36,311 bases of DNA from Candidatus Woesearchaeota archaeon (GTDB lineage Archaea; Nanobdellota; Nanobdellia; JAPDLS01; Haiyanarchaeaceae), in the NCBI GenBank assembly GCA_964386445.1, contig CAYLRC010000001.1, positions 1-36,311 on the forward strand, given 5' to 3'. Shown piece after piece: positions 3,513 through 36,311 of this stretch. A model generated the notes under the pieces. It worked only from the letters and a program-made list of their open reading frames with translations. It was not told where the DNA came from and did not search any database. Both the position numbers and the translations under genes were made by a program. The first letter of the stretch is position 1, and each line of letters starts with the position of its first letter.

Positions 3513-3528
3513 GAACTTAAACTGACTT

Positions 3529-4713
3529 CTAGGCTGCTAGACTCCTATAAACATTTAAGATCTTCTTAGCGCTTTTCTCCCAACTTAGGAAACCCATCTC
3601 TTCCTTCGCTACTTCAACCATCTTCTCAGCGAGCTTTGGATATCTGAGCAATGCTATTATTTTATTCGCCATCTCTTCAGTATCCCAGAAATCAACCTTG
3701 AAGACATTTCTCAAGACCTCTGCAACTCCAGATTGCTTAGATATTATTACTGGTTTATTGTGGTAAAGTGCTTCTAGAGGAGTTATCCCAAATGGTTCCG
3801 AGAGGGAGGGGAGTACGTACACATCAGCTAGCTCATAGAGGAGATCGACTTCCTTATCGGAGAGATAGCCAGTAAATATTACATGATCAGCAATTCCTAA
3901 ATCACTACTTAACTTAACCAATTGGGGCATCATTTCCCCATATCCGCCAACCACAAACAAAACATCTTTCTCAAAATCCAATACTCTTTTCGCAGCTCTC
4001 AAGAACCAATCTGGACCTTTAAACAAGGTGAGCCTCCCCAAGTAAAGCACGATCTTGTAATTCTCCTTCAACTTCTTATACTCAACTCCTCTTATCTTTT
4101 CCCTAAAGCTCACAGCATTATAAACAACTTCTATCTTATCCTCTGGAATTCCATAGAAATTCGTTATTATGTCTTTAATTCGCTTGCTCACCGCAATTAT
4201 TTTATCCGCATTCTCAAATCCAAATTTCTCAATTTGATAATCCAATAAATTCTTATAGAGATTCCCACCACATCTATCAAAGGATGTTGAGTGAACATGC
4301 AAGATGAGGGGTTTCCTAAATCTCCTTTTAAGCTCAACCCCTGCTGGGAAAGTCATCCAATCATGGCAATGAATGAGGTCAAAATCCTCTAGCTCAGCAA
4401 TCTTGCAAACAAGCTCCCTGTATTTGCCGAGGTTTTCAGCTGTAAAGGAAAAGAAGACTTTAACATCCGAATCCAAAAATTTAATGTAGGGATAAAGCCT
4501 AACATCGAGTTCATAGAACTTAACTCTATCCTTTGGAAAATCTCTCGAGATTAGTTCATAAAATCTTGGCTTCAGGTTCTCAGGAATTTTTGGGAGAATG
4601 TAAATGATATTTACTCCTAACTTACCGAGCTCTTTCGTTAGATGATAGCAGGCAACCCCCAACCCACCGCTCTTAAGCGGGGGGAATTCCCACGCTAGCA
4701 TCAAGACTTTCAT
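3529..4713 (-). CDS. glycogen synthase-like glycosyltransferase (GT-B fold, GT4/GT5)
   Basis: The ORF track starts at TTG 4722. The first ATG (4713) gives MKVLMLAWEFPPLKSGGLGVACYHL, the classic N-terminus of archaeal glycogen synthases. E-x7-E region PSLSEPFGITPLEALYHNKPVI. Convergent with the GH57 gene. Confidence 0.8.
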   Translation of the reverse strand: MKVLMLAWEFPPLKSGGLGVACYHLTKELGKLGVNIIYILPKIPENLKPRFYELISRDFPKDRVKFYELDVRLYPYIKFLDSDVKVFFSFTAENLGKYRELVCKIAELEDFDLIHCHDWMTFPAGVELKRRFRKPLILHVHSTSFDRCGGNLYKNLLDYQIEKFGFENADKIIAVSKRIKDIITNFYGIPEDKIEVVYNAVSFREKIRGVEYKKLKENYKIVLYLGRLTLFKGPDWFLRAAKRVLDFEKDVLFVVGGYGEMMPQLVKLSSDLGIADHVIFTGYLSDKEVDLLYELADVYVLPSLSEPFGITPLEALYHNKPVIISKQSGVAEVLRNVFKVDFWDTEEMANKIIALLRYPKLAEKMVEVAKEEMGFLSWEKSAKKILNVYRSLAA

Positions 4714-4774
4714 TTCAAACAATTTTCTTTAAAAGGAAGTATATTTTATATTTTTTGAACTCACTGGGGAGAAA

Positions 4775-4951
4775 TTACTCTTTCTTCTTCCTCTCTTTGG
4801 TCCATTTGAGCTTTTTCGGCTTCCTCCCGAGCTTCAACATGTTCCTCTCGCATTTAGAAGAACAGAAATAGAATATCTTCCCATCGTTCCTAACGAACAT
4901 TATCCCAGTTCCAGGAGGTATTTCCTTATTGCAGAATGAGCATTTCTTCAT
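4775..4951 (-). CDS. rpl24e: 50S ribosomal protein L24e (eL24)
   Basis: Missing from the ORF track (58 aa). My translation is [58 protein letters not shown], an eL24 zinc-knuckle sequence. The ATG overlaps the S28e TGA as ATGA (4948-4951). This completes the conserved L7Ae-S28e-L24e operon. Confidence 0.9.
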
Positions 4952-5235
4952 CTACGTCCACCACTCAATGGATGAGCCTCAAGCTCAGTATCCTTAAGCA
5001 TTAGTATATCGCCTATCCTCACAGGTCCTTTTACATTCCTCCTAAGCACCTTCCCTTCATCTTTTCCCCTCAATATCTTGCACCTAACTTGCGTTACTTC
5101 ACCACGGACTCCAGTCCTTCCAATTATCTCCACAACTTCTGCTGGGGTAGCCTCTGCAAAGACAGCATCCTCACTAACTTTGAGTTGTTCTTCAGCTTTA
5201 GCCTCCTTAATTTTTTGTCTCTTCCTCCCACCCAC
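4948..5235 (-). CDS. rps28e: 30S ribosomal protein S28e (eS28) with N-terminal charged extension
   Basis: Core [54 protein letters not shown] is canonical eS28. The only usable in-frame start upstream of the core is GTG 5235, preceded by GTGAT 5 nt upstream. It adds about 26 residues ([25 protein letters not shown]). Confidence 0.85.
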
Positions 5236-5246
5236 TCAAGATCACT

Positions 5247-5801
5247 CTATTCTTCTTTCTCCTCCTTCTCTTCCTTGGCTTTCTCTTCTTCCTTACTTTC
5301 CTTCTCCTCTTCTTCCTTTGTCTTCCCTTCCTCCTTCTTCTCTTCCTTTACTTCTTTAACCTCTTCCTTCTTCTCCTCAACCTTCTCCTCAACTTCCTCT
5401 ACTTTTTCTTCCTTCTCTTCCTTAGCCTTTGCTCCCTCAATGAGTTTCTTTACTTTCTCAATTATTTCCTCCATCAATGCCTTGCCCTCTCCTGGATCAA
5501 TTATGCAAGCACTTGCAGCAGCAACCTCTATTCCAGCGGCAGCACCAAGGTCTGCTTTACTTGGCACATAGGTATAAGGTATTCCTTTCTCCTCGCAGAG
5601 TGGAGGTAAATGCATTACTATTTCTGGGGGTACGACATCCTCAGCTATTGCAACGAGTTTTGCTTGCCCTTTCTCAACTGCTTTCGTTGTTTCATTAGTT
5701 CCCTTCTTTATCTTTCCTGTATTCCTAGCTACCTCAAAAAGTTGATAAGTTTTCTCGACTAATTCATTAGGGACTTCAAACTTCACATATGGAGCTGGCA
5801 T
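5247..5801 (-). CDS. rpl7ae: 50S ribosomal protein L7Ae (K-turn binding) with 63-aa K/E-rich C-terminal tail
   Basis: ATG 5801 preceded by GGAGGTGA (5815-5808). [54 protein letters not shown] is canonical L7Ae. The canonical domain ends near residue 121 and is followed by [17 protein letters not shown]...EEKEEKEE. Confidence 0.9.
5250..5438 (-). repeat. low-complexity, nearly homopurine (coding strand) tract encoding the L7Ae K/E tail
   Basis: The plus strand is almost pure C/T for about 190 nt (tcttctttctcctccttctcttcc...). This explains the spurious S/F/L-rich antisense ORFs 5078..5359 and 5089..5571. Confidence 0.85.
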
Positions 5802-5880
5802 GCTTTTTCACCTCCTTCTACTTTCATTATTCATTGGCATAATTCTAAGAAATATACTTACTTAAAAACTTTACCTAATC

Positions 5881-6528
5881 TCAAATCTCAATTATCTTCC
5901 CTTTCCTCCCAACATTAATTATCCTACTTTTCCCAATTTTGTCCTCTTTCCCAAAAGTCTCATGAATATGACCGCATAAAACCAAATCTGGCTTCAACTT
6001 CTCAATCACCCTCCTAATACCCTTGCTCCCAGTATGAAATCCTATGTTGTCGAGCTTAGTCCCATAAGGAGGGGTATGGGTTACCAGTACTTTTTTCCTC
6101 GTGTCCTTTATTCCCTCATAGGCCTTCATTAGTATCTTCTCTATTTCTGATTCATCAAACTGAAAAATGCCTATGTTGCTCAAGCCAGCCCCGAAGAAGC
6201 CAACATCCCCAATCTTGATTGAGTACCCATGCAAATTGTAAGTACCTGGAGAATAAACCTTGGCAAGGAAATCAATAGTCGCAACCGTCTCATGATTCCC
6301 AGGTATTATTATGACTTTTTTCTTCTTCTCTTTAAATGGACCAATCAATCCTTCTAAGCTAAGCTCAGCAAAAGTCAAATCACCACATAAGACAACAACG
6401 TCAACTTTCTTCTTAGCCGCCTTCTCGGCCAATTTCTTAACTAGTTCCCTATCTCCATGAATATCAGAGGCTGCTAAAATCCTAAGTTTCTTGATCCTTC
6501 TCCTCTGTTTTCCCTTCCCCTTCCTCAT
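5881..6528 (-). CDS. calcineurin-like metallophosphoesterase (MJ0936/YfcE-like)
   Basis: Motifs ILAASDIHGD, VLCGDLT, IIPGNHE, VTHTPPYG, LCGHIHE. The ATG overlaps the GluRS stop as ATGA (6525-6528). Basic N-terminal leader MRKGKGKQRRRIKK. Confidence 0.8.
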   Translation of the reverse strand: MRKGKGKQRRRIKKLRILAASDIHGDRELVKKLAEKAAKKKVDVVVLCGDLTFAELSLEGLIGPFKEKKKKVIIIPGNHETVATIDFLAKVYSPGTYNLHGYSIKIGDVGFFGAGLSNIGIFQFDESEIEKILMKAYEGIKDTRKKVLVTHTPPYGTKLDNIGFHTGSKGIRRVIEKLKPDLVLCGHIHETFGKEDKIGKSRIINVGRKGKIIEI

Positions 6529-8246
6529 TTGTGGGCAAAAATAAAAAGCAGCTTATCCTTTTCCTTTTTATCTAATCTCATGAAACCAAATCTCTCAGCT
6601 TGAATTATGTCTCCTTCCTTTAATTTCATCGAGTCCCTCTCAATTAATCCCTCAACTTCTCTCAAACTATCTTCATTCAATTTCCCGTTGATGAAAAGTA
6701 AGTCTGGAATTAAGACCTTGGCTTTAAGATGATCTTCAGTAACCCATTGGATTTTCGGAACTTCCTTGAGTAGTTCTTCACTAACGAACTCTGAAATTAC
6801 TTTCTTTCCCGAGATAGTCTTCACTTTTACGTTATACAAATTCTTCAACCTAACTATCTTTCCCTCTTCAAACAACTTCAAATCATCCCTACTCACAAAA
6901 AACTTTCCAGAAGTTTCAACTTCCCTAAAGCCAAGATCCTCAGTTGGGTGATATCTTAACTTCACTCTCTTCTTCGGAGCCCCTTCTACCTCTAGTTCTA
7001 TTGGATTCGGAACAAAGAAATACCTCCTCACTATCGGATCGAGCACCTTCCTATTGATCGAGTAAAGCATTTCCCACTCAAATTCGTGATAAGCCTTTGT
7101 TATCCCAACCTGGACAGTGAATTGTCTTATCGCCTCAGCTGTTACCCCTCTCCTCTTGATCGCATCTATCGTAGCAAGCCTTGGATCGTCCCATCCCTTT
7201 ACAACTCCCTTCTCAATTAGTTCCCTAATTTTCCTCTTTTGGATTGGAGTCCCCTTAAAATTGAACCTCATGTACTGAATTATTATTGGGTTCTTCATCC
7301 CAAATAAGCTCCTTATGTAGTTCTGAAGCTCAGTCCTCATCTCCCCGAATTCTGCACTCCTCAAGACATGAGTAATCCCACAAAAGTAATCCTCTAATGC
7401 AACAGCAAAGTCATAAGTAGGCCAAACCCTATACCTATCGCTAACAATTGGATGGGGGTGCTCAATTACCCTAAAAATCACTGGATCCCTCATACAAAAG
7501 TTCTTGCTCTGCATATCACCCTTCAACCTCAAAGTGACTTCGCCTTCTCTATAATATCCTTCCAACATCCTCCTCCAATCCTCCAAATTTTCCTCAACTT
7601 CTTTATTCCTATGCTCGCATTCCTTCCCACTCTTCCTAAGTTCTCTAATCTTCTCAACCTTACAAGAGCAAACATAAGCAAAGTTCCTAAGGATGAGCTT
7701 TTCAGCATACTTGTAGTAGTTCTCCAAATTCTGAGATTCATATTTCTCGAAATCCCAATTTATGCCAAGCCATCTATAACCATTTCTAAAATTTTCGTAA
7801 AATTCCTTCTTCACTTTCCTTGGATTAGTATCTTCGAATCTCAACCAAACTTTACCATCATACATTCTAGCATAGAGGTAATTTATAATCCCACTCATCC
7901 CATGACCTATATGCATGTAGCCACTTGGTTCAGGAGGTAACCTTGTAACAACTTTTCCCTTCTCAGCATTTGGTAGAGGTGGTAACTCCTTCCTAGCTTC
8001 AATTACTTTCTCGACTAGGAGCTCTGGAGCTATCTCTTCCAACTTTTTCCTCTGCTCCTCTAAACTCATAGAATTAACTTCCTTGACTATTTCTCTTACT
8101 TTCTCCTTAACCTCCTCGATCCTCTCTTTGAGATCCGGTCTTTGACCAAGGACTTTAGAAATTACTGCCTTCTCAAGTGCCCTCCCTTCGTGATCCACAG
8201 CATTCTTCAAGCTCCATTTCAAGATGAGTTCCTCAAGCTCTTCCAT
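6525..8246 (-). CDS. gltX: glutamyl-tRNA synthetase, archaeal type
   Basis: 573 aa with the class I HIGH motif in PSGYMHIGHGMSGIINY. RFEDTNP and WPTYDFAVALEDY are typical of archaeal/eukaryal GluRS. Confidence 0.9.
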   Translation of the reverse strand: MEELEELILKWSLKNAVDHEGRALEKAVISKVLGQRPDLKERIEEVKEKVREIVKEVNSMSLEEQRKKLEEIAPELLVEKVIEARKELPPLPNAEKGKVVTRLPPEPSGYMHIGHGMSGIINYLYARMYDGKVWLRFEDTNPRKVKKEFYENFRNGYRWLGINWDFEKYESQNLENYYKYAEKLILRNFAYVCSCKVEKIRELRKSGKECEHRNKEVEENLEDWRRMLEGYYREGEVTLRLKGDMQSKNFCMRDPVIFRVIEHPHPIVSDRYRVWPTYDFAVALEDYFCGITHVLRSAEFGEMRTELQNYIRSLFGMKNPIIIQYMRFNFKGTPIQKRKIRELIEKGVVKGWDDPRLATIDAIKRRGVTAEAIRQFTVQVGITKAYHEFEWEMLYSINRKVLDPIVRRYFFVPNPIELEVEGAPKKRVKLRYHPTEDLGFREVETSGKFFVSRDDLKLFEEGKIVRLKNLYNVKVKTISGKKVISEFVSEELLKEVPKIQWVTEDHLKAKVLIPDLLFINGKLNEDSLREVEGLIERDSMKLKEGDIIQAERFGFMRLDKKEKDKLLFIFAHK

Positions 8247-8297
8247 AATTCCAGAAAAACAATCATAATTTATTAAAATTCGCTCATCCTTCCACTC

Positions 8298-9197
8298 TTA
8301 CCTCGTTACAATCTTGGAATAGATCTTCGTTTCTAAAGCTACTGGGTAGGCAATTAATTTCCATAACGCAACTCCTTCGTTCCTCACGAGGGTTTCTTTC
8401 ATAGGATTTAATATGAAATGAAACCTCTTAACGAATTTCTCAAGTGTGTTCTGAGGCTCCACTTCACCTTTAACCAACTTCCTAACTAGCTCGTTTATCC
8501 TTTCGTAGTTAACTGATATTTTATCCTTAAACCATTTCAGCACTGGGGTTACAGCTCTATACCCTTGGGTTACTAATATGGGGCTCTCCCTCTCTCTCAA
8601 ATTTTTCAAGATTTCCTCGAGACTCTCACCCTTCACAATGGTACAGGCTATCCCAACCATGTCTAACGAATGGGCGTCACTCCCAGCTACCATACCTTTT
8701 CCAAGTTCCTTTGCTAGTTTCTCAGTCTCTGGAGTAAGAGAGAAAATAAATGGATTGTAAACTTCCAGACAATCTATTTTATCGAATTTCCTTAACTGAC
8801 TCCTCTTGAATGGGTTATAAGTACTGAGTGGGTGAGCAGCAACAACTAAAGTATCATCTTCCCTAGCCTTATCGAGAACTTCTTCGATTCTCTCTCCCCT
8901 TTTAAATTTCAAATTTTCCACATCCTCATTATAGAGAAGCAGGTGAACGATAGAGTTCGAGGGGAGAGCCACATCTAGTTCTATCCCTGGGATTAGGAGA
9001 AACTCTGGAAACTTCTTCTCAACGAACCTTTGAGCCCTCCTAAAACCTTTGGTTGTATTGTGATCGGTTATTGCAGTACCATCATAACCCTCCCTTATGC
9101 ACTCGAGGATCATATCTTCTGGGGAGCAAAGGCCATCCCACTTTAATCTATCACCTTGGGAATAAAAGGTATGGAGATGTAGTTCAAGTACTTTCAT
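8298..9197 (-). CDS. PHP-domain phosphoesterase, TrpH/YciV (COG0613)-like
   Basis: Motifs LHLHTFYSQGD, AITDHNTTKG, IPGIELDV, VAAHPLS, LEVYNPF and AGSDAHS follow the PHP/TrpH-YciV metal-ligand pattern. The ATG overlaps the RNase J TGA (ATGA at 9194-9197). Confidence 0.7.
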   Translation of the reverse strand: MKVLELHLHTFYSQGDRLKWDGLCSPEDMILECIREGYDGTAITDHNTTKGFRRAQRFVEKKFPEFLLIPGIELDVALPSNSIVHLLLYNEDVENLKFKRGERIEEVLDKAREDDTLVVAAHPLSTYNPFKRSQLRKFDKIDCLEVYNPFIFSLTPETEKLAKELGKGMVAGSDAHSLDMVGIACTIVKGESLEEILKNLRERESPILVTQGYRAVTPVLKWFKDKISVNYERINELVRKLVKGEVEPQNTLEKFVKRFHFILNPMKETLVRNEGVALWKLIAYPVALETKIYSKIVTR

Positions 9198-10522
9198 TTG
9201 ATCACCAATTTTTGAGAATTTTGTAGGATGTGAGCACTCTTTCCAAGCTCGTAATCCAATTCATTAGCTAGCTCTATAGCTTTAGCAATCTTTTGAAGCG
9301 TCCCATGAGTTGGCAGATAGTGTTGGGGCCTTAACATTTGAAGTAGCGCTCTATGATCTTCTTTGTACGCATGTCCGGAAACATGCACATCTTTGAAAAT
9401 CCTGACTTTCTTATTCCTCAACCTTCTCTCGAGTTCAGACCTATTAGCTTGGTTTATTGGTGAAGGTATGACCTCTGAGCAGAAAACCACTATATCGTTT
9501 TCCCTTAATTTTAATGGTGTTTCATCGGAAGCAATTCTAACCAAAACGGAATTTGGTTCTCCCTGGTTCCCAGTGCATATCAAAGCATACTTACCCCTGT
9601 CCTTATTTATCTTCTTCAATACTTTATTCACTTCATTTCTATAACCAAGGACTTTATTCTCCTTAGAGAAGTTGACTAGCCTTACTCTTTCAGCGCATTC
9701 TACATAATTTGCTAAGCTCCTCCCAGCTAGAATTGGTTCCCTCCCAATCCTTCGAACGAGCTCTATCATCGTCTTTATCCTAGCTATATGACTTGAGAAA
9801 GTAGTTAAGATTATTAGGTTTCCCTTACTCTCAACCCAAAATAAAATATCTTTCAACATCTCTCGAACTAAACTTTCTGAATGGGTCCTACTTTCCCTAT
9901 CTATCCTAGTTGAATCCGAAATCAATAGCTTAACCCCTTCTTTTCCAAATTTCTTGAGCTTCTCGTAATCTGTTCTCTTTCCAAGAGCTGGATATTCGTC
10001 GAACTTGAAGTCATTTGCATAAATAACCCTACCGTCTTTAGTTTCTATGCAAACGATTACTGTTTGGGGTGTAGAATGTGTAGCATAAATGAAATGGACT
10101 TTAATACCATCCCCAAGATCATAACTTGAACCTGGATTCAATCTTATTAGCTTATCATACCCACTCCCCCTATCCTCAAAAAGCTTCTTAATTACCTCAA
10201 TTGTAAAAGGGGTAGCGATCACAGGAACGTTATACTTGGGAGCTATCATTGGAATTGCACCACAGTGATCTAGGTGAGCGTGAGTACAAATCAATGCTTT
10301 AACTTCGTTCCCATACTTCTTGAAGAACTCCCTATCATCTGGAATTGCCTCCATTTCCCAAAGTTTTTCAGTTGATAACTCCGAAATATTTCCATTCTCA
10401 TACTCGATGACTTTCTCAAGCCATAGGCCAGCATCTAGAATTACAGTTCCTCCTCTCGTCCTCAAAGCACTCATATTCCTTCCTATTTCAGAATACCCAC
10501 CAATGGCAAATACTTCAATCAT
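9194..10522 (-). CDS. rnj: archaeal RNase J (metallo-beta-lactamase / beta-CASP 5'-3' exoribonuclease)
   Basis: 442 aa. CTHAHLDHCGAIP (HxHxDH), beta-CASP motifs LISDSTR, DVHVSGHAYKEDH and YLPTHG. Size and lack of KH domains fit aRNase J rather than aCPSF1. Confidence 0.85.
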   Translation of the reverse strand: MIEVFAIGGYSEIGRNMSALRTRGGTVILDAGLWLEKVIEYENGNISELSTEKLWEMEAIPDDREFFKKYGNEVKALICTHAHLDHCGAIPMIAPKYNVPVIATPFTIEVIKKLFEDRGSGYDKLIRLNPGSSYDLGDGIKVHFIYATHSTPQTVIVCIETKDGRVIYANDFKFDEYPALGKRTDYEKLKKFGKEGVKLLISDSTRIDRESRTHSESLVREMLKDILFWVESKGNLIILTTFSSHIARIKTMIELVRRIGREPILAGRSLANYVECAERVRLVNFSKENKVLGYRNEVNKVLKKINKDRGKYALICTGNQGEPNSVLVRIASDETPLKLRENDIVVFCSEVIPSPINQANRSELERRLRNKKVRIFKDVHVSGHAYKEDHRALLQMLRPQHYLPTHGTLQKIAKAIELANELDYELGKSAHILQNSQKLVIK

Positions 10523-28611: not shown

Positions 28612-29562
28612 TTAGCTCAGTAATTTAACTGAATCTATCTTACCATCCCCATCAGCATCATAGCCACGGATCACAACTGCCCAATTCTTTTCTCCCCTAT
28701 AATCCTTGAATACCTTTTCAGGAAAATTCGTTACTCCAATCACACAGGCTTTCGTTCCTATAAAGCGCAGGCCAGCTAGGACTACTATGCTCTTTCCCCT
28801 CTTCCAAGGATTTTCAATTTTAGCAATTACCCCATCTTTATCATCATCGTAGACATTACCAGCTTCATCCCTTATACCAAGCCAATAATTTCTTTCATCG
28901 AATTTAATTGGTAGATATTTGTTCACTTCAGAGGTTATAAGATTCGTTGCCGGCCCTCCGATGAGTATTAAGTTATTCCCTTCTTCCTTCTCAGCCTTAA
29001 CGTCTACATCCAGCTTTATTACAAAATCCTTCCAACTATTGCATAACTTAGAGAGGAACATAGCTAGATGAGCTGCGTAGTGACCATCTCTAGCATATCT
29101 ACCATAGGGTCCATGAGGTTCGGGGGAGCCGACAACTAAATAGCCATTGAAAACACCATCTTTAATGAACTCCGCAAAGAACCTGCGAGCAGCTTCTGGA
29201 ACTGCCCCTCTTAAGGGATAGGGGAATGCTACTTCTCCAAAATCGAGTTCTATCCCGAATGCTGGAAAGGAGGTCTTGTAATAAACAGCTACCCCTCCTC
29301 TCTTCCTTTCCTCTTTCTCAACCTCTATCAAACCACTCTTTCTCAGTTGATTAATATGATAGTAAATTATCTGCTCGTGCAAATTTAAACGATTGGCAAT
29401 TTGACTTGGATACATAGGGTTTGTTGAAAGCAGTTTCAGGATTTTCCACCTAATAGGGTTGAGCACTGCTTTAAGTTTCGAAGGATCACTAAAAATAACG
29501 ATGTCCTTCATCCTAAATCCATCCTTAGTTTCGTATACAAGTTTCTTCTCCTTGGCACTCAT
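28612..29562 (-). CDS. ArsR-type winged-helix protein with about 200-aa C-terminal domain of unknown function
   Basis: NPIRWKILKLLSTNPMYPSQIANRLNLHEQIIYYHINQLRKSGLIEVEKE is an ArsR/SmtB-like wHTH. I do not recognise the C-terminal half, which ends with the DxDxDG-type loop YDADGDGKIDSV. Confidence 0.6.
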   Translation of the reverse strand: MSAKEKKLVYETKDGFRMKDIVIFSDPSKLKAVLNPIRWKILKLLSTNPMYPSQIANRLNLHEQIIYYHINQLRKSGLIEVEKEERKRGGVAVYYKTSFPAFGIELDFGEVAFPYPLRGAVPEAARRFFAEFIKDGVFNGYLVVGSPEPHGPYGRYARDGHYAAHLAMFLSKLCNSWKDFVIKLDVDVKAEKEEGNNLILIGGPATNLITSEVNKYLPIKFDERNYWLGIRDEAGNVYDDDKDGVIAKIENPWKRGKSIVVLAGLRFIGTKACVIGVTNFPEKVFKDYRGEKNWAVVIRGYDADGDGKIDSVKLLS

Positions 29563-31685: not shown

Positions 31686-32126
31686 TTAGGACTCATTTCT
31701 CAACTTGTGTTCTTGAGTTCTCCTTTGGTCGAAAATATGAATCACCCTATAGCCAAGTTTGGTTAGGTAGTTAGCAATATATTTCCTATGACATTTCCAC
31801 CAAAGCAGTTCCGTACACATTATCGCAGCTTTCTTCCTCCCAATGATTTTAAGCAGTTCTCTAACAGCCTTCGAAAATTCCTCACTCTTGGAGAAAGCAA
31901 GGTATCCTCCCTTTCTAAAACCTCCAAGTCTCGGGAAGTGAACATATTCTATGTTATGTTCTTTAAGTCTCTTCTCCAAGTTTTCTTTATTAAACCAAGG
32001 TACTTTCTTGCTTGTCGGAAATCTCCTAACATCAACTACTAATTGAATTCTAAAAAATTTCAAAATGTTTAAGAACTCCTCGATGCTCCTAGTACTGTGG
32101 CCTATTGTGTAAATCTCTTTCCTCAT
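31686..32126 (-). CDS. DUF488-family protein
   Basis: IYTIGHSTRSIEEFLNILKFFRIQLVVDVRRFPTSKKVPWFNKENLEKRLKEHNIEYVHFPRLGG is the DUF488 signature. The ATG overlaps the lemA TAA (TAATG). Confidence 0.7.
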   Translation of the reverse strand: MRKEIYTIGHSTRSIEEFLNILKFFRIQLVVDVRRFPTSKKVPWFNKENLEKRLKEHNIEYVHFPRLGGFRKGGYLAFSKSEEFSKAVRELLKIIGRKKAAIMCTELLWWKCHRKYIANYLTKLGYRVIHIFDQRRTQEHKLRNES

Positions 32127-32692
32127 TACTCAAATTTTATTTCGACGTCCTTCTTCTCCTCTTCAGCAACTTTGAAAAGCTCCATTGGCTTGAGCTTCAT
32201 GAGCTTGGCCACTATCAAATCTGGTATCGATTGTAATCTTATATTGTAGGAAGTCACGCAATCGTTGTAGAACTCCCTCCTATCAGCTAGCTCATTCTCA
32301 AGTCCAGAAATCCTTTCCTGTAATTGAAGAAAATTCTCATTCGCTCTAAGCTTTGGATAATTTTCAGCAACTGCGAAGAGCTCCTTGATTGCTCTTGATA
32401 TTTCATTAGCAATTTTCGTTTGCTCATCTCGAGTACTTGCTTTCATCCACTGACTCCTGAGTTCTGTGAGCTTTTCGAGAATGCCTCTCTCATATTTCAT
32501 GTAAGCTTTGCAAACCTCAATTAGCTTCCCGAGCTCATCGTGTCTCTGTTTTAGGATTACATCTATGTTAGCCCATGCTCTGTCGATATCCCTCCTGAGT
32601 CTGATGAAATTATTGTAAATTATTACGAAAATTGCGATGAGAGCAATTATAACCAAAGAAACTCCAATTCCAAGCAGTAACCAAATACTCAT
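32126..32692 (-). CDS. lemA: LemA-family membrane protein
   Basis: N-terminal TM, then YNNFIRLRRDIDRAWANIDVILKQRHDELGKLIE ... ENYPKLRANENFLQLQERISGLENELADRREFYNDCVTSYN, the canonical LemA pattern. TATA-like ttttataaag about 26 nt upstream of the ATG. Confidence 0.85.
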   Translation of the reverse strand: MSIWLLLGIGVSLVIIALIAIFVIIYNNFIRLRRDIDRAWANIDVILKQRHDELGKLIEVCKAYMKYERGILEKLTELRSQWMKASTRDEQTKIANEISRAIKELFAVAENYPKLRANENFLQLQERISGLENELADRREFYNDCVTSYNIRLQSIPDLIVAKLMKLKPMELFKVAEEEKKDVEIKFE

Positions 32693-32732: not shown

Positions 32733-33629
32733 TTAAGGAGAGAAAGAGGAAATTATGAGGTAAATAGAAATGCTCAAGAGGGTAATACCCACTATTAAGA
32801 AAGTTACGGATTCTAATAGAAGCTTTCTAAGGAATTTTCTTTCCTTCTCCGTTGAGATTATAAATGGTCTTCCCTTCCTTTTTTGGATCATCAAATCTTC
32901 ATACCCAAATTTAGCCGTTGCCTCCTCTTTATATGGATTGTCACCAACCCATCCTAGGATATATATGGAAGAGCCCACTGGCAAGCATTCCTCTACAACC
33001 TTGAATTTCTTCCTAAAGAGGAAAGAACCTTGACTTATCCCTAAGCTCTTAAGCAATTCAGAAATTTCTTGAGGAGGAGATGGTGGAATTAAGGAGAAGG
33101 GAGATTGGTAAGAGTAACTTATCGGTAAATTAAATTTAGCTCCCTTCGGATCTACGAGAACAGTACCAGTATTATCCTCAATGTAAAAAGGTCTATAAGA
33201 GGATACTTCCTCAACTTTTTTCCAACCACTACTTTTGCCTGAGCTCTTCCATTCGTATACCTCACACTTATAATATACACATCTCTTTTTGGAAAGTGGT
33301 GCCATTAACTCTTCTTTGAAAGGCACTACCCTACCACTCACCTCGGCTAGGCCAATAGCTAAAGATCTTATCCTTGAAGTCGGTAAGCTCTGAATTACCT
33401 TATACTCTTTAATTTCGTCCAGACCCGCATAGAAAAACAGGAGGCCAAATATCCCTAAGAATATGACAAGAGGTAAACTCTCGATTAAACTTCCAGAATA
33501 TTCTCTCCCAACTTCAGAACTTGCCACCCATGCAAGTAGTACGGCACTTCCAATAAGGCCTGCGATGAAAAAGGTGAGGTCCTTAGTTTGAGTTTTTTCT
33601 TTGAGGTTCAAAACATCAAATATTTTCAT
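32733..33629 (-). CDS. GIDE-domain (MUL1-like) membrane protein
   Basis: Two N-terminal TMs and one C-terminal TM. The central part LAEVSGRVVPFKEELMAPLSKKRCVYYKCEVYEW...YRPFYIEDNTGTVLVDPKGA matches the GIDE pattern that commonly neighbours LemA. Confidence 0.6.
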   Translation of the reverse strand: MKIFDVLNLKEKTQTKDLTFFIAGLIGSAVLLAWVASSEVGREYSGSLIESLPLVIFLGIFGLLFFYAGLDEIKEYKVIQSLPTSRIRSLAIGLAEVSGRVVPFKEELMAPLSKKRCVYYKCEVYEWKSSGKSSGWKKVEEVSSYRPFYIEDNTGTVLVDPKGAKFNLPISYSYQSPFSLIPPSPPQEISELLKSLGISQGSFLFRKKFKVVEECLPVGSSIYILGWVGDNPYKEEATAKFGYEDLMIQKRKGRPFIISTEKERKFLRKLLLESVTFLIVGITLLSISIYLIISSFSP

Positions 33630-33704: not shown

Positions 33705-35114
33705 TCAGTCTTCGAAGGTCGAATTAATATCGTTTCCTACGAACTGTTGAGTTTCGTTTACGAGAGTTTCGTTCACTAGAGTTTCATTTGTTATTGTACT
33801 GTTCGTTAATTCTCTCAACTCTTCTTCTAAAACATCACTAATTTCATAACTCTCGCTACCTGTATCTGCACTTATTGAATTGGTGGAATTCTCATAGCCC
33901 GTGTCCCTTTGTTCTCCCATACTAGAATTCTTGTTGTTGCATGAACCTACTATCTTCAGTAATGCTGTGAGATTTACTAATTGACTTTCCACTGTTTCCC
34001 CATTTACTGTTACCCTAGCAACATTCTCATAAATGCGAGGGAAAAGTTCTAGCTCAGAATCGTTTAAGCTACTCCCAATTAGCGCATACTTCAAGTGAAG
34101 TGTTATATAAAGCTCTCCGGAGCTTAAGATTTCATTTTCCTTCAACTCTAAACTTAAGGTTTTATTATCAAAGGTCCACTCAAATTTTGAAGTGACTTCG
34201 CTACCGTTCAGGTAAACGTGGAGCGGATTACCTGTGTTAGGAGGCCATCTCACAAAATCTCCCGTGTCTTTGATCTCTCCAGAAATCTCATCAACTAGGT
34301 TAAGAGCCGTAGCTTCAGGAAGATTCTTAATCTTGATATTAATATAGAACCCTCCCGGATTCGTCGAAATGATCTCACTTGACTTGTTTTGAATAACCAA
34401 ACTAAAATTAGAAATTTCGTTGAAATCTGTATCCGACCACCATTTAACAATTTCTATTGGGTTTGTCTCTTCCCACTCTGTCGCCTTAAAAGTATTGTTA
34501 GGGCTAATTTCAGAATCCAAGAAGAAAGCACCACCAACTACAGTGCTTTGGAGAAGTAAAGCTGATGAGAAAACTAAGATCAATATGGAGCTTAGTAGAT
34601 TTTTCCTAGATTTTTTCCTTCGCCTTTTTTTCTTTGTCTTGCTTCCTTTCCAATATGTAAGGATGTTCCTTACTTCCCCATAGATTACTATCATTCCGGG
34701 GATCAATACAAGGAAGATGAACCCATATTTGCTCCTAGCGTAATGAACGAAATAGCCAACAAGTGGTATAGTAAAAGAGACTTTCCCTATTATGTCATCT
34801 GGTTTTACAACCCAATGATCTGGATCCTCATTAGCATCACCTTTAGTTATGAGCCCTCCTTCAGTGATATTCACAACTCTATGCGTAACCGGAATATTTC
34901 TGTCTCTGTCCCTAAATGCAATAACATCGTTTACTTCTACTTCCTCAAAATCTGTTGGGCTGACTATTACCAAATCTCCCATATTTATCGTTGGAGACAT
35001 ACTTCCCCCGAGGACGACTAAGAAGCGTTCTGATCCCACCTTTGAGATGAGAACTACAACTAAAGAAAAGATCAATATGCTCACAAACACAACTTCACTT
35101 TTCTTTATTTTCAC
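33705..35114 (-). CDS. archaeal/ER-type (S26B, SipW/Sec11-like) signal peptidase fused to a second signal peptide and a sequon-rich extracellular domain
   Basis: GTG start 35114, with an in-frame TAA immediately upstream. Peptidase motifs GGSMSPT, PVTHRVV and KGDANEDPD lie between two TMs. These are followed by KTKKKRRRKKSRK, a third TM, GGAFFLDSEISPNNTFKA and a C-terminal module of about 260 residues with 14 N-x-S/T sequons. Confidence 0.75.
   Translation of the reverse strand: MKIKKSEVVFVSILIFSLVVVLISKVGSERFLVVLGGSMSPTINMGDLVIVSPTDFEEVEVNDVIAFRDRDRNIPVTHRVVNITEGGLITKGDANEDPDHWVVKPDDIIGKVSFTIPLVGYFVHYARSKYGFIFLVLIPGMIVIYGEVRNILTYWKGSKTKKKRRRKKSRKNLLSSILILVFSSALLLQSTVVGGAFFLDSEISPNNTFKATEWEETNPIEIVKWWSDTDFNEISNFSLVIQNKSSEIISTNPGGFYINIKIKNLPEATALNLVDEISGEIKDTGDFVRWPPNTGNPLHVYLNGSEVTSKFEWTFDNKTLSLELKENEILSSGELYITLHLKYALIGSSLNDSELELFPRIYENVARVTVNGETVESQLVNLTALLKIVGSCNNKNSSMGEQRDTGYENSTNSISADTGSESYEISDVLEEELRELTNSTITNETLVNETLVNETQQFVGNDINSTFED
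33749..33793 (-). repeat. 3 x 15-nt imperfect tandem repeat encoding NETLV-NETLV-NETQ
   Basis: Plus-strand units are gagtttcgtttacga / gagtttcgttcacta / gagtttcatttgtta. Each encodes an N-glycosylation sequon near the C-terminus of the peptidase fusion. Confidence 0.8.
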
Positions 35115-35152
35115 TTATATCATCATTTCTTAGTTCCTTCATTCTTCAATTC

Positions 35153-35168
35153 AAAAAATAATAAAAAA
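35153..35168 (-). terminator. oligo-T tract (TTTTTTATTATTTTTT on the minus strand), possible archaeal terminator after the TasA-like gene
   Basis: It lies 43-58 nt downstream of the TasA-like stop and upstream of the peptidase start. Archaeal RNA polymerase terminates at oligo-T runs. I saw no convincing hairpin. Confidence 0.35.
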
Positions 35169-35210: not shown

Positions 35211-35942
35211 CTATTGCCAAGGACTTGGATTGTTTTTACTTTGTACTACTTCCATGATTATACTACCAACTAGGGAATCGGATTGGATGATGTTTCCAGC
35301 ATCTGTTGGTACTCTCCATTCAACACCCAAGTAGTAAGTTGTGGAAGCTTGCAATTCCACAGGAAGTTCTATCCCACCATCATCGATTATGTCGCTCAAG
35401 GACTTGTTAGCAACAATTGGTTCCTCAATACCATTTAATATGTTATCTCCTTCCTCTCGATCTGCCTCACAGCTTCCCTCTCCTCCTGTACACTGCCATC
35501 CTTCATAACTTCCCTCATCCATCCAAACCGTAAAGAGCAGGTAGTCTATTAGTTCTCCTTCTCCAGTTCCTGGAGAGCCACAGGTTGTATCTACCTCGCT
35601 CTCTGGCTCGGTGCAATTGTTCTCGTAATTAACGACATCGAACCTCAACCTTCCCCACGCATTGTTACCGTAGACATGCCAACTGATGGTTGCTTCTCCC
35701 CAGTCACCTGGTTTTATATCACACTCCCAAAAGAAGACTCCTCCATTATCACCCAAGTCCCTTAGAGTCCAACCACAACCTGGTGCTGGACACTCGAAAT
35801 CGATCTTCAAATCGATACTTCCCGCTGTAAATGTATTACCAGTACTAGTCTCAGTATCGCTAAAAAAGGCAAAGGTTGCTCCACTAACTAGAGCAACTAC
35901 TATGCCAGTCACTATTAGGGAAATTAAAATCTCTGATCTCAT
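35211..35942 (-). CDS. TasA/camelysin-class secreted protein with SipW-cognate-type signal peptide
   Basis: MRSEILISLIVTGIVVALVSGATFAFFSDTETSTGNTFTAGSIDLKI follows the h-region + G.TFA.FSD.E.S..N.F.AG..D consensus of SipW substrates. The C-terminal QSDSLVGSIIMEVVQ resembles the TasA-family ending. The protein is acidic with seven Cys. Confidence 0.7.
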   Translation of the reverse strand: MRSEILISLIVTGIVVALVSGATFAFFSDTETSTGNTFTAGSIDLKIDFECPAPGCGWTLRDLGDNGGVFFWECDIKPGDWGEATISWHVYGNNAWGRLRFDVVNYENNCTEPESEVDTTCGSPGTGEGELIDYLLFTVWMDEGSYEGWQCTGGEGSCEADREEGDNILNGIEEPIVANKSLSDIIDDGGIELPVELQASTTYYLGVEWRVPTDAGNIIQSDSLVGSIIMEVVQSKNNPSPWQ

Positions 35943-35966: not shown

Positions 35967-36311
35967 TTACTCTGCAAGTTGAGAGCACAGAAAGTTCGGG
36001 TTGTTTCTTTCTTGTACTGCGTAAAATTCGATATCCCCAGTCAAACTATCTGTTTGAGCTTCGTTACCAACTGATGAACCATCGCAAGTTATTTCTCCAG
36101 TTTCTTGGTTTATGTTCATGGTACCAAAACACCAAACTTTACCAATGTAATAAGTAGTACTTCCAAAAAGTGGGTCTTCGTCAGCTCCTCCTACATTGTT
36201 CTCTTGGGAATCAGCAAGCGTATAAATCCTTCCATCTAGAATTTCACTCGCATATCCTTCCATTAATGGTATGTCACACTCTGGCTGATAGACGTTGTCT
36301 CCTGGACATGC
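35967..36311 (-). CDS. second TasA-like paralogue, C-terminal part (5' end beyond the right edge)
   Basis: The frame stays open upstream of the ORF-track Met to base 36311 (ACPGDNVYQPECDIPLMEGY...). It shares STTYYIGKVW / STTYYLGVEW and QTDSLTGDIEFYAVQERNNP / QSDSLVGSIIMEVVQSKNNP with the 243-aa neighbour. Confidence 0.6.
   Translation of the reverse strand, partial: ACPGDNVYQPECDIPLMEGYASEILDGRIYTLADSQENNVGGADEDPLFGSTTYYIGKVWCFGTMNINQETGEITCDGSSVGNEAQTDSLTGDIEFYAVQERNNPNFLCSQLAE

What the first reader, a model, noticed from the sequence alone, without database searches (positions are those of the whole stretch)
33705..35114. Signal peptidase fused in frame to what looks like its own substrate (SipW-like core + second SipW-cognate signal peptide + glycoprotein-like domain)
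The 469-aa ORF is two modules in one frame. Residues 1-150 form the S26B (SipW/Sec11-type) signal peptidase core. It has an N-terminal anchor (VVFVSILIFSLVVVLISKV), GGSMSPT (Ser nucleophile region), THRV (His), KGDAN, and a second TM (GFIFLVLIPGMIVIYGEV). Residues 157-212 then read like a complete signal peptide of the class SipW cleaves. The n-region is KTKKKRRRKKSRK, the h-region is NLLSSILILVFSSALLLQSTVV, and the motif is GGAFFLDSEISPNNTFKA. That motif aligns with SGATFAFFSDTETSTGNTFTA at the N-terminus of the adjacent 243-aa protein. Positive-inside topology puts both the catalytic domain and the putative cleavage site on the outer membrane face. Cis or trans self-processing that releases a domain of about 270 aa is therefore geometrically possible. 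The C-terminal module has 14 N-x-S/T sequons and ends in an NETLV repeat, so it is probably an exposed glycoprotein. I know of no described peptidase-substrate fusion of this type.
Basis: partly seen in the sequence, partly recalled or inferred. Interest (0 to 1): 0.85.

Follow-up and report, generated by a model that had tools for sequence, protein, structure and literature searches.

The report
Signal peptidase fused to fibre-subunit substrate
An archaeal membrane protease that trims export signals is made as one chain with what looks like one of its own substrates, probably a minor starter or tip subunit of a TasA-like surface fibre; this peptidase-substrate fusion recurs in many uncultured archaea and bacteria, and I found no paper that describes it.

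Summary
ORF 33705..35114(-) is one continuous 469-aa frame.

- **Peptidase.** Residues 8-149 are an archaeal/SipW-type signal peptidase I (TIGR02228, 116 bits). The catalytic residues Ser38, His78 and the Asp of the GDAN box are conserved.
- **Internal signal peptide.** After TM2 comes a loop with 13 Lys/Arg, a third hydrophobic helix and the sequence GGA|FFLDSEISPNNTFKA. A profile built from 75 free-standing TasA-like N-termini finds this site at residues 178-211. The curated TIGR04088 model does not hit this protein, but it hits the same position in three homologues.
- **Conservation.** At least 25 homologues from independent assemblies keep the fusion, so it is not a frameshift artefact.
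- **Cleavage signature.** The site keeps the signal peptidase I pattern: small residues at -3 and -1, a free -2, and Phe at +2.
- **Variable cargo.** The domains after the site differ between relatives: Ig-like, CBM96, LamG/TafC-like, LTD and DUF11.
- **Split version.** One candidate-phyla-radiation (CPR) bacterial locus has the same two parts as adjacent overlapping genes.
- **C-terminal domain.** It models as an Ig-like adhesin or pilin-stalk fold, not as TasA.
- **Upstream genes.** They encode TasA-superfamily subunits.

Best reading: a SipW-type peptidase fused to a minor subunit that works like TapA or TafC. Cleavage after Ala196 would release it to start or cap the fibre. Cleavage and fibre incorporation are inferred, not shown.

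The parts
33705..35114 (-). Whole fused gene: 469 aa, GTG start, TGA stop at 33705-33707
   Evidence: The exact protein is on record from two contigs, the NCBI one being this window's own 36,311-bp contig.
35037..35093 (-). TM1, the N-terminal anchor of the peptidase (residues 8-26)
   Evidence: AF2 helix 5-26. K2/K4/K5 precede it, consistent with an N-in orientation.
34731..35036 (-). Catalytic domain of the S26B (SipW/Sec11-type) signal peptidase I, residues 27-128. Ser38 codon at 35001-35003; His78 codon at 34881-34883; the KGDAN box holds D93.
   Evidence: TIGR02228 116.1 bits, Peptidase_S26 26.1 bits. H78, G92, D93 and D99 are invariant and S38 is >=90% conserved. Foldseek hits human SEC11A/C, 7p2p_A and 7p2q_A.
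34671..34727 (-). TM2 (residues 130-148, YGFIFLVLIPGMIVIYGEV), returning the chain to the cytoplasm
   Evidence: AF2 helix 129-157. G131 and P139 are invariant and G140 is >=90% conserved.
34599..34670 (-). Cytoplasmic Lys/Arg-rich loop, which is the n-region of the internal signal peptide (residues 149-172)
   Evidence: 13 K/R and 0 D/E in residues 148-176. Fused homologues have a median of 8 K/R against 1 D/E in the 25 residues before the h-region.
34527..34598 (-). TM3, the h-region (L173-L188) plus c-region (Q189-A196) of the internal signal peptide. The predicted signal peptidase I site lies after Ala196 (G194 at -3, A196 at -1).
   Evidence: AF2 helix 171-191. The custom profile of free-standing TasA-like signal peptides matches 178-211. 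-3/-1 statistics are.
34479..34526 (-). Donor-strand-like motif FFLDSEISPNNTFKAT (residues 197-212). It would be the N-terminus of the released module.
   Evidence: F198, D200 and E202 are invariant and A211 is >=90% conserved in 25 homologues. It aligns with FFSDTETSTGNTFTAG of the neighbouring pilin. In TasA, residues 28-38 form the donor strand (PMC9674648).
33945..34457 (-). Conserved all-beta Ig-like domain (residues 220-390; KWWSDT...TNPGGFYINI...LTALLK)
   Evidence: AF2 pLDDT of about 85-95. Foldseek matches Ig-like domains of Gram-positive adhesins and pilins at E about 2e-6. Only 30 relatives were found among 1.84 billion representatives.
33708..33944 (-). Disordered Asn/Ser/Thr/Glu-rich tail (residues 391-469) with 7 sequons and the NETLV repeat (15-nt repeat at 33749-33789)
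   Evidence: pLDDT below 35. Sequons; tandem repeat. The tail varies between close relatives.
35211..35942 (-). Upstream gene for a 243-aa TasA-superfamily subunit with a SipW-type signal peptide (...SGATFA|FFSDTETSTGNTFTAG)
   Evidence: TIGR04088 37.2 bits, PF12389 33.4 bits. AF2 pLDDT 82. The top Foldseek hit is the TasA fibre 8aur_A at 2.6e-5; AbpA 7ueg and thread 7pnb are also hit.
35967..36311 (-). 3' part of a second TasA-like gene, cut by the end of the contig
   Evidence: The translation ends ...TDSLTGDIEFYAVQERNNPNFLC. This is the same C-terminal pattern as the 264-292-aa TasA-like paralogues of L001 and L006.
35152..35168 (-). T-rich run in the 96-nt spacer between the pilin gene and the fused gene. 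It could be a partial archaeal terminator.
   Evidence: Sequence read directly. The function is inferred only.

Best explanation
The gene encodes a three-pass membrane polyprotein.

**N-terminal part (residues 1-148).** This is a dedicated SipW-type signal peptidase I: TM1, the outside catalytic domain, then TM2.

**Junction.**
- The Lys/Arg loop (149-172) sits in the cytoplasm and acts as the n-region.
- TM3 (173-196) forms the h- and c-regions of an internal signal peptide of the SipW-cognate class.

**C-terminal part (residues 197-469).** This lies outside the cell. It consists of a 16-residue segment homologous to the N-terminal donor strand of TasA-family subunits, an Ig-like beta-sandwich domain, and a disordered tail that is probably N-glycosylated.

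**Proposed steps, all inferred.**
1. The peptidase cuts after Ala196, either in its own chain or in a neighbouring copy.
2. The freed N-terminal strand inserts into the acceptor groove of a TasA-like major subunit encoded just upstream. This starts or caps a donor-strand-exchange fibre, as TapA does for TasA in Bacillus and as the tip protein TafC is modelled to do in haloarchaeal Tafi.
3. The remaining core, which keeps the cut-off signal peptide as TM3, then processes the major subunits.

**Consequence.** The fusion fixes a one-to-one ratio of enzyme to minor subunit and places both at the same membrane site.

**Shown:** domain identities, conservation of the junction, synteny, and the fold predictions. 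**Inferred:** cleavage, donor-strand insertion and the fibre role.
For: 1. **The peptidase looks active.** It scores above the TIGR02228 cutoff with intact Ser/His/Asp residues.
2. **The junction looks like a signal peptide.** It has the n-h-c layout, and a profile of free-standing TasA-like signal peptides finds it. TIGR04088 reaches its cutoff at the same internal position in P0025 and P0003, and P0008 is just below.
3. **The site keeps the cleavage signature.** In 29 non-identical fused sequences from different lineages, -3 is T/S/G in 28 and V in the other, -1 is A/S/T in 25, -2 is free, and +2 is Phe in 26. The 74 free-standing substrates show the same pattern, and it matches TasA's TWA|AFND site. 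Phe at P2' is the feature that makes TasA need SipW rather than LepB (PMC10269814 abstract).
4. **The cargo is modular.** The same junction precedes an Ig-like domain here, CBM96/DNRLRE in P0021 and P0027, DUF11 in P0029, LTD in P0037 and P0046, and a LamG domain that matches the TafC tip protein in P0099 at 4.9e-8.
5. **A split version exists.** In the CPR (candidate phyla radiation) bacterial locus L008, a 180-aa peptidase gene overlaps by 14 nt the start of a 787-aa gene. That protein begins with a long signal peptide followed by TFA|SFNDTESSLENSFTAG and an LTD domain.
6. **Synteny is conserved.** One to three TasA-like genes precede the fused peptidase in the window and in L001/L002 and L004. 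The neighbour's model best matches the TasA fibre.
7. **The same Ig-like domain occurs on a fibre subunit.** In P0031 it is attached to the C-terminus of a TasA-like subunit.
8. **The module has TapA's layout.** TapA has a SipW-cleaved signal peptide (1-43), a donor strand (44-57), an Ig fold (71-190) and a dispensable tail. TapA and SipW are both of low abundance, and their genes overlap (PMC10151520).
Against: - No experimental data exist for any member of this family.
- TIGR04088 itself does not hit this protein, and the TapA model scores only 12.9 bits (E 0.062).
- AF2 gives low confidence (pLDDT below 50) for residues 158-176 and 182-217. It gives no confident placement of the site near the active centre.
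- One clade (P0019-P0024) has Leu at -1, which is atypical for signal peptidase I.
- The uncharged span before the site is slightly longer than in free-standing substrates, with a median of 24.5 against 21 residues. A stable TM3 anchor therefore cannot be excluded.
- The window protein has no C-terminal anchor. If it is cleaved, nothing obvious keeps it on the cell.
- I could not model donor-strand insertion of the module into the neighbouring subunit, because no multimer prediction was available.
Confidence: 0.55

Rival explanations
1. The junction is not cleaved. TM3 is a permanent third membrane helix. The C-terminal Ig-like domain then stays attached to the peptidase in one of two roles. 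It could be an accessory or substrate-handling domain, comparable to the second extracellular domain of TafD, to DUF5305 fusions, or to eukaryotic SPC22/23. Or it could be a membrane anchor whose tethered donor strand holds the proximal end of the fibre.
For: - TafD has four predicted TM helices and a second extracellular domain of unknown function (PMC11821415).
- DUF5305 accessory modules are sometimes fused to signal peptidase I (preprint 10.64898/2026.01.04.697558).
- The window protein has no other anchor.
- The uncharged span before the site is a little longer than in free substrates.
- One clade has Leu at -1.
Against: - The -3/-1/+2 cleavage signature is conserved across very distant fused proteins while -2 varies freely.
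- Very different cargo domains follow the same junction. That does not fit a conserved accessory role.
- In the split version the cargo has an ordinary N-terminal signal peptide.
- The haloarchaeal TafD-like homologues in my set have no such motif after TM2.
- No SPC22/23 chain appeared among the 50 listed Foldseek hits.
Confidence: 0.28
2. The module is cleaved and released but is not a fibre component. The motif serves only as a recognition element for the dedicated peptidase, and the product is an independent secreted or surface glycoprotein such as an adhesin.
For: - The C-terminal domain is a complete Ig-like fold, modelled confidently without any partner strand.
- More distant relatives of this domain sit in large surface proteins with C-terminal membrane anchors and no SipW-type motif.
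Against: - The conserved part of the motif lies mostly after the cleavage site (F198, D200, E202, A211). It coincides with the donor strand of TasA-family subunits.
- The gene is always found directly after TasA-like genes.
- P0031 joins the same domain to a TasA-like subunit.
Confidence: 0.12
3. The fusion is an assembly or sequencing artefact: a missed stop or a frameshift joining two genes.
For: A 1-nt indel polymorphism does exist at the extreme 3' end, giving the 469-aa and 490-aa variants. One CPR homologue (P0036, L006) appears broken just after the motif.
Against: At least 25 homologues of 35-98% identity from independent assemblies in ENA, JGI, NCBI and Logan read through the junction in one frame.
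Confidence: 0.01

Closest known systems
Bacillus subtilis tapA-sipW-tasA system (SipW peptidase, TapA nucleator/anchor, TasA fibre)
   Same: - It has a dedicated Sec11/SipW-type signal peptidase I encoded next to TasA-superfamily subunits.
- Its substrates carry a small-x-small|aromatic-F-[N/S]-D site followed by a donor strand.
- Its minor subunit, TapA, has a signal peptide, a donor strand, an Ig fold and a dispensable tail.
- TapA and SipW are both of low abundance, and their genes overlap (PMC10151520, PMC9674648).
   Different: - Here the peptidase and the TapA-like module are one polypeptide, so the signal peptide is internal.
- The gene order is pilins, then peptidase, then minor module. 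In Bacillus it is tapA-sipW-tasA.
- The window protein fails the SipW equivalog cutoff (105.7 against 190 bits) and the TapA model (12.9 against 80 bits).
- The host is an uncultured archaeon, whose closest relative in NCBI is labelled Nanoarchaeota.
Haloarchaeal Tafi locus (TafD peptidase, TafC tip, TafE/TafA pilins, TafF anchor, TafG/DUF5305)
   Same: - It has a dedicated signal peptidase I with extra membrane helices and a second extracellular domain.
- Its fibre assembles by donor-strand exchange, with a tip protein that donates a strand.
- A LamG/TafC-like domain is the fused cargo in the distant homologue P0099.
   Different: - TafD has four TM helices, and no SipW-type cleavage motif was seen after TM2 in the haloarchaeal homologues I examined.
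- TafC is a separate, Tat-exported protein.
- No DUF5305 protein was seen next to the window gene.
Signal peptidase I fused to the DUF5305 accessory module (for example Anaerolinea thermophila E8MZY1)
   Same: It is a signal peptidase I of a TasA-like fibre locus extended by an extra extracellular beta-sandwich module after further membrane spans.
   Different: That fusion is interpreted as enzyme plus accessory subunit, with no cleavage site described. Here the junction carries a conserved substrate-type cleavage motif, and the cargo varies between relatives.
Internal signal peptides cleaved by signal peptidase in viral polyproteins such as those of flaviviruses (from my own knowledge)
   Same: An internal hydrophobic segment re-initiates translocation and is cut on the outer or lumenal side, splitting one chain into two membrane or secreted products.
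   Different: There the peptidase belongs to the host and is not part of the polyprotein. Here the enzyme would be one of the two products.

Membership tests
Archaeal/Sec11-type signal peptidase I (S26B; TIGR02228) | Profile score above the curated cutoff | tested here: met
   116.1 bits against a cutoff of 51.85, residues 8-149. Pfam Peptidase_S26 scores 26.1 against 22.9.
Archaeal/Sec11-type signal peptidase I (S26B; TIGR02228) | Catalytic Ser and His (not Ser/Lys) plus conserved Asp residues in the GDAN box | tested here: met
   S38 is >=90% conserved (GGSMSP). H78 (THR), D93 and D99 are invariant in 25 homologues.
Archaeal/Sec11-type signal peptidase I (S26B; TIGR02228) | N-terminal membrane anchor with the catalytic domain on the outer face; SipW-type second TM | tested here: met
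   AF2 helices at 5-26 and 129-157. Basic residues lie before TM1 and after TM2. The topology is inferred from the positive-inside rule.
Archaeal/Sec11-type signal peptidase I (S26B; TIGR02228) | Proteolytic activity on signal peptides | not testable with these tools
   This needs biochemistry or genetics.
Bacillus SipW equivalog (NF046067) | Score above the equivalog cutoff of 190 bits | tested here: not met
   105.7 bits. The protein is related to SipW but is not an ortholog by NCBI's criterion.
SipW-cognate signal peptide (TIGR04088) | Profile score of at least 19 bits | tested here: not met
   There was no hit at E<=10 on residues 155-225. The score is at or above the cutoff at the equivalent internal site of homologues P0025 (23.1) and P0003 (19.0), with P0008 at 18.7. 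A custom profile scores 16.1 bits on residues 178-211.
SipW-cognate signal peptide (TIGR04088) | n-h-c layout, with small residues at -3 and -1, followed by aromatic-F-x-D-x-E...N-x-F-x-A | tested here: met
   The sequence is K156-K171 / L173-L188 / QSTVVGGA | FFLDSEISPNNTFKA.
SipW-cognate signal peptide (TIGR04088) | Located at the N-terminus of the precursor | tested here: not met
   It is internal, beginning at residue 156 after a complete peptidase.
SipW-cognate signal peptide (TIGR04088) | Encoded with a SipW-type peptidase | tested here: met
   They lie in the same polypeptide. TasA-like genes are adjacent.
TapA (TIGR04087) | Profile score above 80 bits | tested here: not met
   12.9 bits, E 0.062, covering only the signal-peptide and strand region. 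The module resembles TapA in layout but is not a family member.
TasA/camelysin (Peptidase_M73, PF12389): C-terminal module of the fused protein | Pfam match or a TasA-like jelly-roll fold | tested here: not met
   There is no Pfam hit in residues 150-469. The 50 listed Foldseek hits are Ig-like adhesin or pilin domains, not TasA.
TasA/camelysin (Peptidase_M73, PF12389): neighbouring 243-aa protein | Pfam match and a TasA-like fold | tested here: met
   PF12389 scores 33.4 against 22.5. More than 1300 homologues were found, some named TasA or M73 family. The top Foldseek hit is 8aur_A, the TasA fibre, at 2.6e-5.
TafD-type peptidase (haloarchaeal Tafi) | Four TM helices with a second extracellular domain between TM3 and TM4 | tested here: inconclusive
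   The window protein has three helices and no C-terminal TM. Homologues P0003, P0008 and P0025 end in a hydrophobic segment plus a basic tail. TafD itself was not compared directly.

The most novel reading that the evidence does not exclude
The protein is an obligately self-processing membrane polyprotein. The peptidase cuts its own chain once at an internal signal peptide and keeps that peptide as a permanent third helix. In doing so it releases exactly one fibre-starting subunit per enzyme molecule. Peptidase maturation, the stoichiometry and the site of fibre assembly would then be coupled in a single gene. The same principle would be reused with different adhesin cargos in DPANN archaea, CPR bacteria, and lineages that appear from sequence composition to include Actinobacteria. 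That taxonomy was not checked.
Probability: 0.25. Interest if true: 0.8.

Novelty: new variant of a known kind. Interest (0 to 1): 0.62.

Why it matters
- **Enzyme and substrate in one chain.** Dedicated signal peptidases next to TasA-like fibre genes are known, but how these chaperone-free fibres are started and placed on the cell is still open. A natural fusion of the peptidase to a minor subunit carrying a donor strand points to a physical and stoichiometric coupling between processing and fibre initiation.
- **Internal signal peptide.** It would give a clear prokaryotic example of an internal signal peptide cleaved by signal peptidase I.
- **A simple test.** The hypothesis can be tested by expressing one gene, mutating Ser38 or Ala196, and mapping the N-termini.
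- **Annotation.** Many proteins labelled only "signal peptidase I" in uncultured archaea and bacteria carry a hidden second product.

Tried and rejected
1. **TIGR04088 and TIGR04087 on the excised segment.** There was no TIGR04088 hit and only a weak TapA hit. I therefore did not file the segment under either family.
2. **Word-indexed protein search with residues 176-401.** It returned nothing although close homologues exist. This looks like a tool limitation, and one search was wasted.
3. **Sequence search of the neighbour against the PDB.** Only chance-level hits came back. Fold comparison was needed instead.
4. **TasA-like fold for the C-terminal module.** Rejected, because Foldseek gives Ig-like adhesin or pilin-stalk domains.
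5. **Docking of the cleavage site into the active site.** The full-length AF2 model was too uncertain in residues 158-217 to tell. No multimer prediction was available, so donor-strand insertion could not be modelled.
6. **Scan of GTDB species genomes for the KWWSDT/NPGGF patterns.** It found a single locus, so I obtained no taxonomic survey and could not count other S26 genes in a complete genome.
7. **Length of the uncharged span as a cleaved-versus-anchor discriminator.** It was not decisive: 24.5 against 21 residues.
8. **P0036 as a "minimal cargo" case.** Rejected, because the next ORF overlaps and encodes the middle of an LTD domain. The locus is probably frameshifted.
Full report
**1. 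Observation**

The ORF 33705..35114 on the minus strand is real: 469 codons, a GTG start directly after an in-frame TAA, and no internal stop.

*Peptidase core.* Residues 8-149 match the archaeal signal peptidase I model TIGR02228 (E 1.3e-33, 116.1 bits, cutoff 51.85) and Pfam Peptidase_S26. The Bacillus SipW equivalog model scores 105.7 bits, below its 190-bit cutoff. In an alignment of 25 fused homologues, His78, Gly92, Asp93 and Asp99 are invariant and Ser38 is kept in at least 90%. Nothing suggests an inactive enzyme.

*Membrane layout.* An AlphaFold2 (AF2) model built on that alignment has helices at 5-26, 129-157 and 171-191. It also has a confidently folded all-beta domain at 220-390 (pLDDT about 85-95) and a disordered tail from 391. 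Residues 148-176 hold 13 Lys/Arg and no acidic residue. By the positive-inside rule, both the catalytic domain and everything after the third helix lie outside the cell.

*Smaller details.* There are 15 sequons, 14 of them in the C-terminal module. The NETLV repeat is a 15-nt tandem repeat of 2.7 copies at 33749-33789.

**2. Is the junction a signal peptide of the SipW-cognate class?**

With corrected numbering the junction reads:
- n-region: K156-K171
- h-region: L173-L188
- c-region: QSTVVGGA, ending at Ala196
- motif: FFLDSEISPNNTFKAT

The curated TIGR04088 model does not hit this segment, even at E<=10. The only related signal is a weak TapA hit (TIGR04087, 12.9 bits, E 0.062).

The comparative evidence is much stronger:
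- TIGR04088 hits the equivalent internal position in homologues P0025 (23.1 bits) and P0003 (19.0 bits, at the 19-bit cutoff). P0008 falls just short at 18.7 bits.
- I built a 40-column profile from the N-termini of 75 free-standing TasA-like proteins. It finds residues 178-211 of the window protein with 16.1 bits (E 4.9e-5 in a 134-sequence set). It also finds the same place in almost all fused homologues, up to 32 bits.
- In 29 non-identical fused junctions, position -3 is T18/S6/G4/V1. Position -2 is unconstrained (G, S, E, N, L, Q, V). Position -1 is A20/S4/T1/L4. Position +1 is Y/F and +2 is F in 26. D at +4 and E at +6 are invariant.
- The 74 free-standing proteins show the same pattern (-3 T71, -1 A73).

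This is the classical signal peptidase I signature. It lines up with the known TasA site TWA|AFND (PMC9674648). Phe at P2' is the feature reported to make TasA depend on SipW rather than LepB (PMC10269814 abstract).

**3. Not an artefact, and not confined to this organism**

The whole-protein search returned 109 relatives. The first 27 are 35-98% identical and 378-812 aa long. They come from ENA, JGI, NCBI and Logan assemblies, and they carry peptidase, TM2, basic loop, TM3 and motif in one frame. The nearest named one is RLG16450.1, "signal peptidase I [Nanoarchaeota archaeon]".

The rest of the window is archaeal housekeeping: aIF2-gamma, aIF5B, a Pelota-like ORF (from its sequence), archaeosine TGT and RNase J.

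The same junction is followed by unrelated cargo in other members:
- CBM96/DNRLRE in P0021 and P0027
- DUF11 in P0029
- a lamin-tail domain (LTD) in P0037 and P0046
- another domain in P0025
- a LamG region in P0099 that matches the TafC tip-protein model at 4.9e-8

Looser versions of the motif appear after TM2 in further distant homologues, such as P0103, P0106 and P0107. I did not test these further.

**4. Genomic context**

Immediately upstream on the same strand lies a 243-aa protein with TIGR04088 (37.2 bits) and Peptidase_M73. It has more than 1300 homologues, several named TasA or M73 family or "SipW-like signal peptide". Its AF2 model (pLDDT 82) best matches the TasA fibre 8aur_A (E 2.6e-5). 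AbpA (7ueg), the Sulfolobus thread (7pnb) and CanA also appear in the list.

A second TasA-like gene is cut by the contig end.

The order of TasA-like gene(s) followed by the fused peptidase recurs:
- In L001/L002, two TasA-like genes precede the 703-aa fused protein.
- In L004, three TasA-like genes precede the 702-aa fused protein.

In the CPR (candidate phyla radiation) bacterial locus L008 the arrangement is split. A plain 180-aa peptidase gene overlaps by 14 nt the start of a 787-aa gene. That product begins with a long basic n-region, an h-region and TFA|SFNDTESSLENSFTAG, followed by an LTD domain. The downstream frame is closed 23 codons upstream of its start, so the split looks genuine.

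**5. The C-terminal module**

Foldseek places residues 220-390 among the Ig-like domains of Gram-positive surface adhesins and pilins, at E about 2e-6. Examples are Sgo0707, antigen I/II C-domains, PrgB, BcpA, EbpB and TTHA1873. None of the 50 listed hits is TasA.

An exhaustive phmmer search of 1.84 billion representatives found only 30 relatives:
- The close ones are fused peptidases or fragments.
- The distant ones carry the domain inside large surface proteins, some with a C-terminal membrane anchor.
- One, P0117, is a small secreted protein with an ordinary signal peptide.

In P0031 the same domain follows a TasA-like subunit. That ties the domain to this kind of fibre.

The conserved residues of the motif (F198, D200, E202, A211) lie after the predicted cut. 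They correspond to the segment that forms the donor strand in TasA (residues 28-38) and, by similarity, in TapA (PMC9674648, PMC10151520).

TapA has the same layout as the fused module. It has a SipW-cleaved signal peptide (1-43), an essential N-terminal strand (44-57), an Ig fold (71-190) and a dispensable tail. TapA and SipW are both present at low levels, and their genes overlap.

**6. Mechanism**

I consider it most likely (about 0.55) that the peptidase cuts after Ala196, in cis or in trans. The product would be a glycoprotein of about 273 aa. Its new N-terminus would insert into a TasA-like subunit and start or cap the fibre. The core would keep TM3 and go on to process the major subunits.

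Several observations fit a low-abundance minor component but prove nothing: the weak GTG start, the T-rich run in the 96-nt spacer after the pilin gene, and the greater divergence of the fused strand compared with the major subunits' strands.

The main rival (about 0.28) is that TM3 is never cut. The Ig-like domain would then be an accessory domain or a membrane anchor, as suggested for TafD's second domain or for DUF5305 fusions.
- For the rival: this protein lacks any other anchor, the uncharged span is slightly longer than in free substrates, and one clade has Leu at -1.
- Against the rival: the cleavage signature is conserved, the cargo is exchangeable, and a split version exists.

A third reading is that the module is released but is not part of the fibre (about 0.12). 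An artefact is excluded for practical purposes.

**7. Comparison with the literature**

The papers I could search describe four related things:
- dedicated signal peptidases next to TasA, AbpX or Tafi genes
- TafD with extra helices and a second domain of unclear function
- DUF5305 accessory modules sometimes fused to the peptidase
- separate tip and minor subunits (PMC9245690, PMC11821415, PMC12337348, preprint 10.64898/2026.01.04.697558)

None describes a peptidase fused through a substrate-type internal signal peptide to a module carrying a donor strand. Searches for TIGR04088-type terms, and for DPANN plus TasA plus signal peptidase, found nothing relevant. The library is incomplete, so "undescribed" is provisional.

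**8. Verdict**

The fused module is a minor fibre subunit that works like TapA or TafC, not a TasA-like domain. And the curated signal-peptide model does not reach threshold on this particular sequence.

This is a new variant of a known kind of system, and it recurs across uncultured archaea and bacteria. Cleavage and the fibre role are untested.

Noticed in passing
window 33705-33730 (3' end of the fused gene) compared with P0001/P0257: Near-identical relatives come in two forms, 469 aa and 490 aa. Reading the window DNA one frame over after ...NDINST gives the longer tail (SKTETPCSEIRSRFLSESLNLY...). The two forms therefore differ by a 1-nt indel just before the stop. Each form is seen in at least two assemblies.
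   Followed up: partly
window 32126-32692(-) and 32733-33629(-): A LemA-family protein (1.4e-48) and a membrane protein with a GIDE-like domain (8e-14) lie directly downstream of the fused gene on the same strand. I did not examine whether they are co-transcribed or functionally linked.
   Followed up: no
P0049 and P0058 (homologues): These are signal peptidase I homologues that carry a sortase domain (PF04203) in the same protein. This is another fusion of two surface-protein processing enzymes.
   Followed up: no
P0003, P0008, P0025: Some fused homologues end in a hydrophobic segment followed by a basic tail (for example VSFISIGFLSKRKNELLK). After cleavage their module would stay anchored in the membrane by its C-terminus. 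The window protein lacks this.
   Followed up: partly
P0031: This 385-aa protein joins a TasA-like subunit, whose signal-peptide motif is degenerate (GGTYA|KLTTT), to the same KWWSDT Ig-like domain that is fused to the peptidase in the window.
   Followed up: partly
L005 (locus of P0025), 3156-9647: The fused peptidase and its TasA-like neighbour sit next to a resolvase, a PriX-like primase subunit, RHH proteins and many small ORFs. This part of the contig may be a mobile element.
   Followed up: no
L006 8001-9171 (Candidatus Chisholmbacteria, P0036): The peptidase-TM3-motif ORF stops about 20 residues after the motif. The next ORF overlaps it and encodes the middle of an LTD domain, so this is probably a frameshifted fused gene. 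A sortase gene lies nearby.
   Followed up: partly
window 35152-35168 and 35114: A T-rich run follows the pilin gene, and the fused gene uses a GTG start preceded by a tiny ATG-ATG-ATA-TAA frame. Both could keep expression of the fused gene low relative to the pilin.
   Followed up: no
window 28612-29562(-): This 316-aa protein combines an ArsR-type HTH domain with an S-layer-like outer domain (PF05124).
   Followed up: no
(tool behaviour): The word-indexed protein search with residues 176-401 returned no hits, although the full-length search and the exhaustive search both find 92-98% identical proteins covering that region.
   Followed up: no
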